DNA from: Candidatus Omnitrophota bacterium
Lineage (GTDB): Bacteria > Omnitrophota > Gorgyraeia > Zapsychrales > Zapsychraceae
Reading direction: 5' to 3'
DNA length: 64,000 bases
Assembly: GCA_029261055.1 (NCBI GenBank)
Contig: JAJDCA010000068.1
Location: forward strand, 69,275 to 133,274
This document shows, piece by piece, positions 7,607 through 9,184 of the stretch; positions within the stretch are counted from its first letter, which is position 1, and each line of letters begins with the position of its first letter. The position numbers and the translations under genes are program-made. The notes below the pieces were generated by a model. That model did not search any database. It had not been told where the DNA came from and saw only the letters and a list, made by a program, of their open reading frames with translations.

Positions 7607-9184
7607 TTAGGCGCCGGTAAAATGATCTGTTGCCAGGTGCCCCGTCTTTCGATCAATGGCAAACCAGTTTCCATTAAAATTGGTTGTTTGGTGCTCAATC
7701 CAGACAATCGCAGCTTCATCAATGTAAGATCCAATCTCCTGCATCAGATCATCCCCATGAATCGTTGATACTCCATCCCCAATAGCAAGCGGATAATTAT
7801 TAAAGACATGCTCTGTTTCCTTATCTGTAAAAATCCGCAAGGTAATTGTATTGTCTGGATTTTTTTCGCTACCGCCAACCGTAGAGAGACAATAAACATT
7901 TCGAAATTCCTTAAACAGTGGCGCCATTTTCAGACATCGATACGACTTTGGCGTAGCCCTCGGATCATTTTTATACCCATACGTAAATTGCGAATGGACC
8001 TGATCTGCAAAAAGATCTCCCCGCCGATAGTACAAATTTAAATAACATGGAACCCGAACAGAAAACTCATTTTGATCCCGCAAAAAATCTGCAACAAAAT
8101 ACACTCTTCCTTCAATACTCTCGCCTTCAAAAACCTTAACAAGGTCAAAACCTGTTTTATCATCATTTAGTGTTACTTTTTTTTCACATATAAATTCACC
8201 GGATTCATAATAGGCTTTTAATAATAACGATTTGACTTGGAACCCTATTTCATTTTTATTCACATTAATCAAAGGAGCATTAAGCTGAAAATCAGGCACA
8301 TAAAAGGCTGTCACACAAGGCTGAGCAGCTGTTCCTGCTATTGGAGAAACATTAATGTCACTCATATTACCTGTACAATTATCATGCCAAAGCGCCGTTG
8401 GCATACCATCGTTGTCATGAATAATACAAAATCCTTGTGAACCCTTAACAGGGTCTGTGCTTTTGGCCTCCCTGAAAAGATTTTTTCCTCCATTTAAATC
8501 GAGAACCTGAGAAGGATCAGCGAAATTACAATAATACGCCGGACGTTCTCTTGGAATATACGCACGATAACAAAATTTATCTCTGTTGACATACGGCCCT
8601 AACGGACTAGGAATAGAATGAACTCCGGAAAGAACGCCCTTATCAGAATCCTTTAAAAGCATAAAAAAACGAAACTCACCGCCCGGGGTCTTAATTCGAG
8701 GATGAAAGGCCTCCAACACAACAACACCCCGTTCGGGCAAGGCATCAAGGCCCGCCTCTTCGCTGAAATTCTTAATGAACCTCACTTGGTTAGGCCCAAA
8801 AAGATATTGCCTGGACCAGAAGCACCTCCCACCTACCAGAACAGATAATCGGATAAGAAGAGGATCACGAATACCATAGTTTCGCTGTAGAAAATTAAAA
8901 ATCAACAAATTTGTCATACCGCGGTAATAAGGAACATGCGCGGAAACAAAAGGAGTTTCAAAATCCGGAACAATTTCCTCAGAATTTTCTTTTCGATAAT
9001 AGGTGGAAAGTAACTCAGACAATAAATCGGATAAAGGCACAATCTTTGCAGAGGGATGCTGATCTAAATAATGCGCCTGCATGGCTTTCGCATCAAACCC
9101 GGGGCATGCCTTAAAAAATTTAACAGCCAATTTCTCGGAAGTATCTCGCCCTACTACTTTTGAAAGAAAATTTAATTTTGACAT
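7607..9184 (-). CDS. Hypothetical protein, 525 aa, no recognisable family
   Basis: Long clean ORF co-oriented and tightly spaced with flanking biosynthetic genes. I recognise no Rossmann, P-loop, PLP, DxD or other motifs. Confidence 0.5.
   Translation of the reverse strand: MSKLNFLSKVVGRDTSEKLAVKFFKACPGFDAKAMQAHYLDQHPSAKIVPLSDLLSELLSTYYRKENSEEIVPDFETPFVSAHVPYYRGMTNLLIFNFLQRNYGIRDPLLIRLSVLVGGRCFWSRQYLFGPNQVRFIKNFSEEAGLDALPERGVVVLEAFHPRIKTPGGEFRFFMLLKDSDKGVLSGVHSIPSPLGPYVNRDKFCYRAYIPRERPAYYCNFADPSQVLDLNGGKNLFREAKSTDPVKGSQGFCIIHDNDGMPTALWHDNCTGNMSDINVSPIAGTAAQPCVTAFYVPDFQLNAPLINVNKNEIGFQVKSLLLKAYYESGEFICEKKVTLNDDKTGFDLVKVFEGESIEGRVYFVADFLRDQNEFSVRVPCYLNLYYRRGDLFADQVHSQFTYGYKNDPRATPKSYRCLKMAPLFKEFRNVYCLSTVGGSEKNPDNTITLRIFTDKETEHVFNNYPLAIGDGVSTIHGDDLMQEIGSYIDEAAIVWIEHQTTNFNGNWFAIDRKTGHLATDHFTGA

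What the first reader, a model, noticed from the sequence alone, without database searches (positions are those of the whole stretch)
7607..9184. Orphan 525-aa protein embedded in the biosynthetic operon
Clean, long ORF in the same transcriptional train, sitting between the cyclitol-like block and a CMP-transferase/aldolase pair. I can find no nucleotide-binding, PLP, metal or transferase motif, and it is not an obvious membrane protein. A genuinely unassigned enzyme in a pathway context is a good target.
Basis: seen in the sequence. Interest (0 to 1): 0.55.

Follow-up and report, generated by a model that had tools for sequence, protein, structure and literature searches.

The report
Unnamed triple-β-sandwich protein in glycan operon
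This is an intact, strongly conserved gene for a rare protein family that no database has described; it is built from three fused sugar-binding-type β-sandwich units, is usually partnered with its own methyltransferase in surface-sugar gene clusters, and its biochemical function is still unknown.

Summary
The ORF (7607-9184, minus strand, 525 aa) is real, intact and under purifying selection (dN/dS 0.05-0.14). It matches nothing in Pfam, NCBIfam, PHROGs, PADLOC or PDB sequences. The family is rare: 177 representatives among 1.84 billion proteins, none named. The AlphaFold model is confident (pLDDT 89, pTM 0.90) and has no whole-chain PDB match (TM <= 0.16). New findings:
- The protein is an N-terminal helical region plus three homologous ~120-aa β-sandwich units. 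Each unit ends in a conserved His (H189, H397, H521).
- The unit's best fold match is TM1070/ASRT, a predicted sugar-binding domain, with no sequence link.
- 107 of 108 full-length members end exactly in [DE]H-x-[TS]-G-[GA].
- 16 of the 22 most conserved positions are polar or charged.
- A rare ~290-aa SAM methyltransferase (window 19435-20331) accompanies the gene in 9 of 14 informative loci across phyla, and in 4 of 4 reverse look-ups.
- The gene repeatedly sits inside ulosonic-acid modules (NeuB, KdsA-like or HpcH aldolase, plus a CMP-transferase).

Best reading: a cytoplasmic, probably metal-assisted sugar-processing enzyme coupled to methylation (about 0.45). Main rival: a non-catalytic sugar-binding partner of the methyltransferase (about 0.3). 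The reaction is unknown.

The parts
7607..9184 (-). CDS of the 525-aa orphan protein (stop codon at 7607-7609)
   Evidence: homologs; AF2 model with pLDDT 89 and pTM 0.90; dN/dS 0.05-0.14
8990..9184 (-). Residues 1-65: N-terminal helical region. Conserved only in the close subfamily; distant members align from about residue 65-80 onward.
   Evidence: secondary structure; alignment ranges
8600..8989 (-). Residues 66-195: β-sandwich unit U1. Contains P85, N97, F98, Y103 and R172, and ends in 'GVH189S'.
   Evidence: hhalign U1-U3 E 3.8e-6 and U1-U2 E 1.7e-4; shuffle and reversal controls; conservation
8336..8599 (-). Residues 196-283: insertion after U1, carrying invariant R207 and H267 (motif W-H-D)
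7979..8335 (-). Residues 284-402: β-sandwich unit U2. Contains P297 and invariant D394, and ends in 'DQVH397S'.
7610..7978 (-). Residues 403-525: β-sandwich unit U3. Contains K419, P422, R450, E458, E497 and N502, and ends in the strictly C-terminal motif D520-H521-F-T-G-A.
   Evidence: isolated-unit AF2 model with pLDDT 85 and pTM 0.77; Foldseek best match 1NC7 with TM 0.44-0.53; C-terminal motif in 107 of 108 members
19435..20331 (-). Partner class-I SAM methyltransferase ('MT290', 298 aa). It lies 10.2 kb upstream in the same gene train and is directly adjacent to the target's homolog in most other genomes.
   Evidence: rare family, 32 clusters; adjacency; reverse look-ups
9198..9953 (-). 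Unrelated Methyltransf_24 methyltransferase directly upstream (13-nt gap to the target's ATG)
9963..10799 (-). KdsB-like CMP-ulosonic-acid cytidylyltransferase of the same sub-operon
   Evidence: NF009905, 280 bits against a cutoff of 255
10748..11548 (-). HpcH/HpaI class II pyruvate aldolase; by inference the condensing enzyme that makes a 3-deoxy-2-ulosonic acid
7450..7606 (-). Structured 157-nt intergenic region after the target's stop codon, with three stem-loops
   Evidence: z = -3.2; no Rfam match; no canonical terminator

Best explanation
The gene encodes a soluble cytoplasmic protein of a previously undescribed family.

Shown:
- It is an N-terminal helical region followed by three homologous ~120-aa eight-stranded β-sandwich units in one chain, with a ~90-aa insertion after the first unit.
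- Each unit ends in a conserved histidine (H189, H397, H521).
- The chain always stops right after D-H-(F/L)-T-G-(G/A).
- Its strongest genomic partner is a dedicated ~290-aa SAM methyltransferase.
- It is repeatedly embedded in modules that make CMP-activated ulosonic or nonulosonic acids for surface glycans.

Inferred:
- It is an enzyme, not just a binder.
- The three unit-terminal histidines, together with H267, D394, D520, E458 and E497, form one asymmetric and probably divalent-metal-assisted active site where the units meet.
- R172, R207, R450 and K419 hold an anionic group (carboxylate or phosphate/diphosphate) of a sugar intermediate. Y103 acts in catalysis or stacking.
- It works one step before or after the partner methyltransferase, so that the module delivers a methylated acidic sugar to the glycan. 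In this organism, which is probably an anammox-type planctomycete, that glycan would be a heavily methylated S-layer or LPS glycan.
- My most likely specific reaction, at low confidence (about 0.15-0.2), is hydrolytic or phosphoester cleavage that frees a modified aldose from its nucleotide or phosphate carrier. That would feed the neighbouring condensing enzyme (here the HpcH aldolase), after which the KdsB-like enzyme CMP-activates the product.
For: - Real and constrained.
- Novel family: no Pfam, NCBIfam, PHROGs or PADLOC hit. No PDB sequence hit. Whole-chain Foldseek TM <= 0.16. Only 177 representatives among 1.84 billion proteins. No source name.
- Triplication: hhalign E-values 3.8e-6, 1.7e-4 and 9.3e-5, with the terminal His residues aligned. 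Real scores of 35.7, 26.3 and 26.3 compare with shuffle maxima of 17.2, 12.8 and 11.9 (86).
- Catalytic-type conservation: across 108 members, 16 of the 22 most conserved positions are His, Arg, Lys, Asp, Glu, Asn, Tyr, Ser or Thr. Only one aromatic residue (F98) and no Trp is conserved. The C-terminal motif is present in 107 of 108 (81).
- Sugar link at fold level: the unit best matches TM1070/ASRT (TM 0.44-0.53, probability 0.99). That superfamily is predicted to bind sugars in a His-lined cleft formed between units (PMC2739507).
- Methyltransferase coupling: MT290 is the top neighbour family, in 11 of 18 loci within 6 kb, against 6 for the next family (87). It is present in 9 of 14 informative target-anchored loci, including the ~20%-identity subfamily. 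All 4 methyltransferase-anchored loci contain the target (55-59). The pair stands alone in two non-glycan contexts.
- Ulosonic-acid context: L030 reads GNAT | target | NeuB | CMP-transferase with overlapping stops and starts. L031 reads NeuB ... dehydratase, DegT | target | ... MT290, GFO, CMP-transferase. L027 reads KdsA-like | target | MT290 | CMP-transferase. The window reads aldolase | KdsB-like | MTase | target.
- The hosts include strict anaerobes and aerobes, which by inference argues against an O2-dependent reaction.
Against: - No catalytic activity, metal or ligand has been shown.
- The unit's structural relatives are binding modules (ASRT, CBMs, Cna), not enzymes.
- The PseG-like hydrolase idea is weakened. 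A bona fide PseG (178 bits against a cutoff of 154) sits 4.4 kb away in L030 (100), and a PseG-like gene is in the window.
- Five informative loci lack MT290, and six lack ulosonic-acid genes within the flanks available.
- Two stand-alone pairs lie outside any glycan cluster (41, 58).
Confidence: 0.45

Rival explanations
1. It is a non-catalytic, ASRT-like sugar- or nucleotide-sugar-binding protein. The three fused binding modules would act as the substrate-recognition or targeting subunit, or as an allosteric sensor, for the partner methyltransferase and, where that is absent, for other decorating enzymes such as the carbamoyltransferase.
For: - The best fold match of the unit is ASRT/TM1070, followed by CBMs and the Cna collagen-binding domain.
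- ASRT domains are proposed intracellular sugar sensors that act through protein-protein contacts, always as oligomers or tandem repeats, with a conserved His in the cleft.
- MT290 was never seen without the target in 4 of 4 look-ups, whereas the target occurs without MT290.
- In MT290-less loci the target sits beside a carbamoyltransferase triad.
- The two genes are separated by tight gaps of 12-120 nt.
Against: - Seven absolutely invariant polar residues and 16 of 22 top positions polar or charged, with no conserved Trp, is unusual for a lectin-type binder.
- Four His plus four carboxylates looks like a metal or catalytic centre.
- There is no sequence link to ASRT, and the ASRT signature residues are absent.
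- The protein lies in-line between enzymes with overlapping stop and start codons, like a pathway step.
Confidence: 0.3
2. It is a glycosyltransferase of a new all-β fold. It would transfer a CMP-activated ulosonic or nonulosonic acid, or another sugar, onto the growing glycan, and the added residue is then methylated by MT290.
For: - The window gene order reads aldolase, CMP-transferase, methyltransferase, target, which fits 'make, activate, modify, transfer'.
- The Arg/Lys cluster plus Tyr and acidic residues recalls carboxylate-binding sites of sialic-acid enzymes (from my own knowledge, not tested).
- A two-gene transfer-and-methylate module could work alone using a housekeeping donor such as CMP-Kdo, which would explain the stand-alone pairs.
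Against: - No known glycosyltransferase is all-β, and there is no GT family hit.
- The clusters already contain candidate transferases: TIGR04326/BFO_1060-like and TIGR04372.
- In L030 and L031 the gene sits among precursor-synthesis genes, upstream of the CMP-transferase.
Confidence: 0.1
3. It is not glycan-related at its core. The target-MT290 pair would be a self-contained module acting on a small metabolite or a protein, recruited secondarily into glycan clusters.
For: - The pair stands alone between DsbA/EamA and glyoxalase/MTTB genes (L014/L015), and between an integrase/FMN reductase and the pst operon (L029).
- MT290's weak structural relatives include small-molecule and peptide methyltransferases: trans-aconitate MTase and plantazolicin N-MTase.
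Against: - Most informative loci are glycan clusters from five or more phyla.
- The unit fold points to sugar binding.
Confidence: 0.1
4. It is a chance ORF, a pseudogene or a fusion artefact.
For: None found.
Against: A 525-codon ORF with 177 family representatives, colinear full-length orthologs, dN/dS of 0.05-0.14 and a confident compact model.
Confidence: 0.01

Closest known systems
ASRT/ASRAH β-sandwich superfamily (Anabaena sensory rhodopsin transducer; Thermotoga TM1070, PDB 1NC7; Pfam DUF1362)
   Same: - An eight-stranded β-sandwich of ~115-125 aa. It is the best Foldseek match of the isolated unit (TM 0.44-0.53, rmsd about 4.3 Å, probability 0.99).
- It functions as an oligomer or tandem repeats, with a cleft between units lined by a conserved His.
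- It occurs intracellularly in sugar-metabolism operons (PMC2739507).
   Different: - No sequence relationship: no Pfam hit and no PDB-sequence hit with a unit profile.
- The ASRAH signature residues (Trp at strand 1, Asn after strand 2, SHEshChhN) are absent.
- Here three units are fused with a helical N-terminus and a 90-aa insertion.
- There are far more invariant charged residues and a strict C-terminal motif.
PseG / LegG(NeuC): nucleotide-sugar hydrolases of the pseudaminic and legionaminic acid pathways
   Same: - The target occupies the PseG slot in gene order in L030 (GNAT | target | NeuB | CMP-transferase) and follows the PseB/PseC-like genes in L031.
- No PseG or NeuC is visible in L012 or L031.
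   Different: - No homology: PseG and NeuC are GT-B-type α/β proteins, whereas this protein is all-β.
- A true PseG coexists in L030 and a PseG-like gene in the window.
- The resemblance is positional only.
Binuclear metallophosphoesterases acting on nucleotide-sugars (e.g. LpxH); analogy from my own knowledge
   Same: The composition of the conserved set (several His, Asp/Glu and Asn, plus Arg/Lys) is what such sites look like.
   Different: The calcineurin-like motifs and the α/β fold are absent, and there is no Pfam Metallophos hit. This is purely a chemical analogy and is untested.
Transthyretin-like 5-hydroxyisourate hydrolase; analogy from my own knowledge
   Same: A small β-sandwich subunit of ~115 aa. 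The active site forms between subunits from conserved His and Arg residues and a strictly conserved C-terminal tetrapeptide.
   Different: It does not appear among the fold hits and there is no sequence similarity. It has a different oligomeric logic (homotetramer rather than a fused triple repeat).
FirrV-1-C4 (UniProt Q6XLX4), an uncharacterized 525-aa protein of Feldmannia irregularis virus a
   Same: It is the only whole-chain structural hit with high Foldseek probability (1.00, TM 0.35), and it has the same length.
   Different: 7% identity and rmsd 15 Å. Its function is unknown. No family member was found in viral contigs or phage genomes.

Membership tests
Any curated family (Pfam-A, NCBIfam, PHROGs, PADLOC) | Significant profile-HMM match | tested here: not met
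   0 families for the query. For 64 divergent members there were only scattered single hits with E >= 0.0026.
Any protein with a solved structure | Sequence match to a PDB chain, or whole-chain fold match | tested here: not met
ASRT/ASRAH superfamily | Eight-stranded β-sandwich of ~120 aa with the TM1070 topology | tested here: inconclusive
   Best match 1NC7, with TM 0.44-0.53, probability 0.99 and E 0.007-0.013. The fold is similar, but strand-by-strand topology was not checked.
ASRT/ASRAH superfamily | Sequence signature: Trp at the start of strand 1, Asn ending strand 2, SHEshChhN in ASRT-like members (PMC2739507) | tested here: not met
   No DUF1362/ASRT Pfam hit. The unit profile does not find 1NC7. 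The motif is absent from alignment A4.
ASRT/ASRAH superfamily | Acts as an oligomer or as tandem repeats | tested here: met
   Three tandem homologous units.
PseG (TIGR03590) / NeuC-type NDP-sugar hydrolase | GT-B-type fold and family HMM match | tested here: not met
   No NCBIfam hit, and the model is all-β.
PseG (TIGR03590) / NeuC-type NDP-sugar hydrolase | Fills an otherwise missing hydrolase step in NeuB operons (functional analogy) | tested here: inconclusive
   No PseG or NeuC in L012 or L031. A true PseG is present in L030, a PseG-like gene in the window, and NeuC in L008.
   No Pfam hit in 64 members. No lyase among the Foldseek top hits.
Cupin / double-stranded β-helix enzymes (RmlC-like epimerases, Fe/2OG oxygenases) | Cupin motifs or an HxD...H triad, and a cupin fold | tested here: not met
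   No Pfam hit. Cupin and P4H structures appear only with probability 0.12-0.30 and TM 0.17-0.23.
Glycosyltransferases (GT-A, GT-B, GT-C) | Rossmann-type α/β or polytopic membrane fold; GT family HMM | tested here: not met
   All-β soluble model with no transmembrane segment. No family hit.
Calcineurin-like metallophosphoesterases | DxH / GD / GNH[DE] / GHxH motifs | tested here: not met
   No Pfam hit. The motifs are absent from alignments A1 and A2.
Metal-dependent enzyme (generic) | Bound metal and clustered ligands | not testable with these tools
   Model coordinates are not exposed and there is no biochemistry. Only the invariant His/Asp/Glu set is known.

The most novel reading that the evidence does not exclude
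The family is a new catalytic scaffold: a single-chain pseudo-trimer of ASRT-like sugar-binding β-sandwiches. The three equivalent unit-terminal histidines and the strictly terminal DHFTG(G/A) tail would build a metal centre. It would carry out a so-far unassigned step in making methylated nonulosonic or Kdo-like acids, together with its own dedicated methyltransferase. That would make it a portable two-gene sugar-tailoring module found from anammox bacteria to Omnitrophica, SAR324 and predatory bacteria.
Probability: 0.25. Interest if true: 0.75.

Novelty: categorically new. Interest (0 to 1): 0.6.

Why it matters
Bacterial surface glycans carry many modified nonulosonic and Kdo-like acids, and the tailoring enzymes for them are largely unassigned. 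Anammox S-layer glycans are known to be exceptionally methylated (PMC5088730), yet no genes have been tied to that chemistry.

This family now has three features that make it directly testable:
- a precise set of invariant residues;
- a strict C-terminal signature;
- a fixed methyltransferase partner.

If it is an enzyme, it adds a new protein scaffold to carbohydrate biochemistry and would be an example of a binding-domain repeat evolving into a catalyst. If it is a binder, it would be the first fused, intracellular ASRT-like module shown to steer a glycan-modifying enzyme. Either way, it deserves its own family entry in place of the label 'hypothetical protein'.

Tried and rejected
- **Family libraries.** Pfam, NCBIfam, PHROGs and PADLOC gave nothing.
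- **PDB sequences.** A single-sequence search and three profile searches gave only noise.
- **Whole-chain fold search.** Foldseek against the PDB returned only generic multi-Ig or macroglobulin matches with TM about 0.1. BFVD gave one uncharacterized phaeovirus protein.
- **Deep-profile homolog search for names.** No named or Pfam-bearing relative was found. Cluster look-ups gave no names.
- **Phage, plasmid and viral-contig searches.** No match.
- **Literature.** Searches for the C-terminal motif and for TIGR04372, TIGR04326, TIGR04425 and PF27878 found nothing.
- **Rosetta-stone fusions.** The longer members (up to 669 aa) are just insertions or extensions, and none is fused to the methyltransferase.
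- **Paralogs in the window.** None, although Omnitrophica loci carry a diverged 691-aa paralog.
- **'Target replaces PseG'.** Attractive from the gene order in L030 and L031, but downgraded after a bona fide PseG was found in L030.
- **β-propeller or sialidase-like reading of the Arg/Tyr/acid set.** Rejected, because the fold hits are β-sandwiches and not propellers.
- **Oxygenase.** Considered unlikely because the hosts include strict anaerobes (inference).
- **Intergenic structure.** No Rfam family.
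Full report
**Observation**

The ORF at 7607-9184 on the minus strand is exactly as described: ATG start, TAA stop, 525 codons. It lies in a 64-kb stretch in which essentially every gene is on the minus strand.

Beyond it are a KdsB-like cytidylyltransferase and an HpcH/HpaI aldolase. Downstream, after a 157-nt gap, comes a block of four genes: GFO/IDH/MocA, D-2-hydroxyacid dehydrogenase, SDR, and an AroB-like enzyme (TIGR04425).

The protein has no hydrophobic segment; the maximum 19-residue Kyte-Doolittle mean is 0.92. Orthologs of identical length align end to end, and dN/dS between them is 0.05-0.14. This is an intact gene under purifying selection, not a pseudogene or a fusion.

**Is it really unassigned?**

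Yes. The evidence:
- No match in Pfam-A, NCBIfam, PHROGs or PADLOC.
- Scanning 64 divergent family members against Pfam also gave nothing credible.
- No PDB chain matches by sequence, whether with the single sequence or with three different profiles.
- The word-indexed search of 5.8 billion proteins found 19 clusters.
- The exhaustive profile search of 1.84 billion representatives found 177.
- Nearly all members are about 520 aa, are aligned over the whole length, and have no foreign domain.
- No source gives any member a name other than 'hypothetical protein'.
- The family is absent from the phage, plasmid and viral-contig collections.
- Genome hits come from Planctomycetales and Brocadiaceae MAGs (64-66% identity, the closest relatives), Omnitrophica, SAR324 and Pseudobacteriovorax.

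By inference, the window probably comes from an anammox-type planctomycete.

**Anatomy**

AlphaFold2 with an 18-sequence alignment gives a confident, compact, mostly β model (pLDDT 89, pTM 0.90). Foldseek against the PDB finds nothing with TM above 0.16, only generic multi-β-sandwich proteins.

Profile-profile comparison of sub-alignments shows that the chain has five parts:
- an N-terminal helical region (residues 1-65);
- unit U1 (66-195);
- an insertion of about 90 aa (196-283);
- unit U2 (284-402);
- unit U3 (403-525).

The three units are homologous:

| Pair | E-value | Aligned columns |
|---|---|---|
| U1-U3 | 3.8e-6 | 115 |
| U1-U2 | 1.7e-4 | 111 |
| U2-U3 | 9.3e-5 | 100 |

The real scores of 35.7, 26.3 and 26.3 compare with maxima of 17.2, 12.8 and 11.9 in 30 column shuffles, and with about 12 for reversed profiles.

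Equivalent conserved positions include the prolines that open each unit (P85, P297, P422). They also include a histidine that closes each unit: 'GVH189S', 'QVH397S' and 'TDH521F'.

U3 predicted on its own folds as eight strands plus one helix (pLDDT 85, pTM 0.77). Its best PDB match is Thermotoga TM1070 (1NC7; TM 0.44-0.53, probability 0.99), followed by Cna-type and carbohydrate-binding modules.

TM1070 is an ortholog of the Anabaena sensory rhodopsin transducer. De Souza, Iyer and Aravind argued that this ASRT/ASRAH superfamily binds small molecules, most probably sugars. They place the ligand in a cleft lined by a conserved His and completed by a neighbouring unit, and note that the domain always works as an oligomer or as tandem repeats (PMC2739507).

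The resemblance here is at fold level only. There is no DUF1362 hit, the unit profile does not retrieve 1NC7, and the ASRAH signature residues are missing.

**Conservation**

Across 108 full-length members, some as low as about 16-20% identical, the following hold:

| Conservation | Residues |
|---|---|
| Invariant | Y103, R172, H189, R207, H267, D394 |
| Top residue at a weighted frequency of 0.87-0.99 | H397, K419, R450, E458, E497, N502, D520, H521, T523, G524 |

Sixteen of the 22 most conserved positions are polar or charged. Only one aromatic residue (F98) is conserved, and no tryptophan. 107 of 108 proteins terminate exactly with [DE]-H-x-[TS]-G-[GA].

This looks like an active or metal site plus an anion-binding site, not a lectin surface. 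I could not verify that the residues cluster in space, because the model coordinates are not exposed. That is the single most useful missing computation.

**Genomic associations**

I collected 18 non-redundant loci for neighbour clustering, and two more afterwards, L030 and L031. I then clustered all ORFs within 6 kb of the target.

By far the commonest neighbour is one particular class-I SAM methyltransferase of about 290 aa ('MT290'). It is present in 11 of 18 loci, against 6 for the next family.
- Counting only loci found through the target and with usable flanks, MT290 is present in 9 of 14.
- Usually it is directly adjacent, with gaps of 12-120 nt and in either order. The 9 include the window, where it lies 10 kb upstream at 19435-20331, and L031, from the most distant subfamily.
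- MT290 is itself a rare family of 32 clusters. All four MT290-anchored look-ups contained a member of the target family.
- In two cases (L014/L015 and L029) the pair stands alone outside any glycan cluster. The two genes therefore form a minimal module.

The second theme is ulosonic-acid biosynthesis:

| Locus | Gene order around the target |
|---|---|
| L030 | GNAT, target, NeuB, CMP-transferase, with overlapping stops and starts |
| L031 | NeuB ... 4,6-dehydratase-like, DegT, target, 422-aa protein, MT290, GFO, CMP-transferase |
| L027 | KdsA-like, CBS, target, MT290, CMP-transferase |
| Window | HpcH aldolase, KdsB-like, methyltransferase, target |

L008, L010, L012 and L028 also carry NeuB and/or CMP-transferases nearby. 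Where MT290 is missing (L024, L010), the gene sits beside a triad of carbamoyltransferase, a 330-aa protein and a 680-aa protein. The same triad is present in the window at 11741-16792.

The rest of the window is a very large glycan cluster. It contains:
- about eleven methyltransferase genes and three aminotransferase domains;
- NeuB and a PseG-like gene;
- two TIGR04372 glycosyltransferases and a TIGR04326 protein;
- an MsbA-like ABC exporter;
- MBOAT, FkbH and two split transketolases.

That fits the unusually heavy methylation reported for the Kuenenia S-layer O-glycan (PMC5088730).

**Mechanism**

What is shown:
- a conserved cytoplasmic protein made of three fused β-sandwich units of a sugar-binding type;
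- a polar invariant constellation and a fixed C-terminus;
- tight genomic coupling to one methyltransferase family and to CMP-ulosonic-acid modules.

What I infer (confidence about 0.45):
- It is an enzyme whose single asymmetric site forms where the three units meet.
- The unit-terminal histidines, with H267, D394, D520, E458 and E497, act as metal ligands or general acid/base residues.
- R172, R207, R450 and K419 hold a carboxylate or (di)phosphate.
- It acts immediately before or after MT290 on an acidic or nucleotide-activated sugar.

The most concrete reaction I can propose is release of a modified aldose from its nucleotide or phosphate carrier, to feed the adjacent condensing enzyme. 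This rests on gene order in L030 and L031 and on the absence of PseG or NeuC in L012 and L031. It is weakened by a genuine PseG in L030 (178 bits against a cutoff of 154) and a PseG-like gene in the window. I give it only about 0.15-0.2.

**Rivals**

| Rival | Confidence |
|---|---|
| Non-catalytic ASRT-like sugar-binding partner that targets or regulates MT290 | about 0.3 |
| Glycosyltransferase of a new all-β fold | about 0.1 |
| Module whose primary substrate is not a glycan | about 0.1 |
| Non-gene (chance ORF, pseudogene or artefact) | about 0.01 |

**Novelty and verdict**

Interest is moderate to high at 0.6. The function is unresolved, but the family is now sharply defined, has an obligate-looking partner, and comes with clear experiments.

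Noticed in passing
window 7450-7606 (minus strand): The 157-nt gap after the target's stop codon folds into three stem-loops, including a 13-bp stem (MFE -52.3 kcal/mol, z = -3.2 against shuffles). It has no T-run and no Rfam match. It may be an operon-internal processing or attenuation element separating the aldolase-KdsB-MTase-target genes from the GFO/AroB-like block.
   Followed up: partly
window 11741-16792 (minus strand); also L024 8550-13602 and L010 6739-18936: A carbamoyltransferase travels with a ~330-aa GDSL-like protein and a ~680-aa protein that has no family hit. The triad is conserved at 48-69% identity in L024. In the SAR324 locus L010 the carbamoyltransferase and the ~680-aa protein are conserved, alongside a GDSL protein. 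It is a second unassigned module, seen next to the target where the ~290-aa methyltransferase is absent.
   Followed up: partly
L012 11608-13683 (minus strand; identical in L005, L013, L022, L023): The Omnitrophica locus carries a diverged, colinear 691-aa paralog of the family directly next to the regular member. It ends in EHMFGG followed by a 13-residue extension, and has no family annotation, so the superfamily is broader than the 177 representatives.
   Followed up: partly
window 27691-29874, 48981-50207 and 13561-15609 (minus strand): Three further large proteins (727, 408 and 682 aa) in the same cluster also lack a family assignment. The 727-aa and 682-aa proteins have no Pfam or NCBIfam match, and the 408-aa protein has no Pfam match. 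The 727-aa protein has a 32%-identical homolog beside the target in L004/L008.
   Followed up: no
window 9963-11548 (minus strand): A class II HpcH/HpaI pyruvate aldolase overlaps by 52 nt a KdsB-like CMP-transferase that scores above the KdsB subfamily cutoff. This suggests a pyruvate-dependent rather than PEP-dependent route to a CMP-activated 3-deoxy-ulosonic acid. L030 carries SIS, HpcH and HAD genes in series.
   Followed up: partly
window 1-64000: A single unidirectional glycan supercluster. It contains about eleven methyltransferase genes (including a sugar C-methyltransferase), two split transketolases, FkbH, MBOAT, an APH-type kinase, an AroB-like TIGR04425 cyclase and a radical SAM/SPASM protein. 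It has unusually rich tailoring capacity, consistent with the heavily methylated anammox S-layer glycans.
   Followed up: partly
L030 14804-15846 (minus strand): Two adjacent NeuB fragments (166 and 164 aa) look like a split or pseudogenised second NeuB. They lie next to a bona fide PseG and near the intact NeuB that follows the target.
   Followed up: no
BFVD entry Q6XLX4 (FirrV-1-C4): An uncharacterized 525-aa phaeovirus protein is the only whole-chain structural hit with Foldseek probability 1.00 (TM 0.35). Its sequence could not be retrieved here to test for homology.
   Followed up: no
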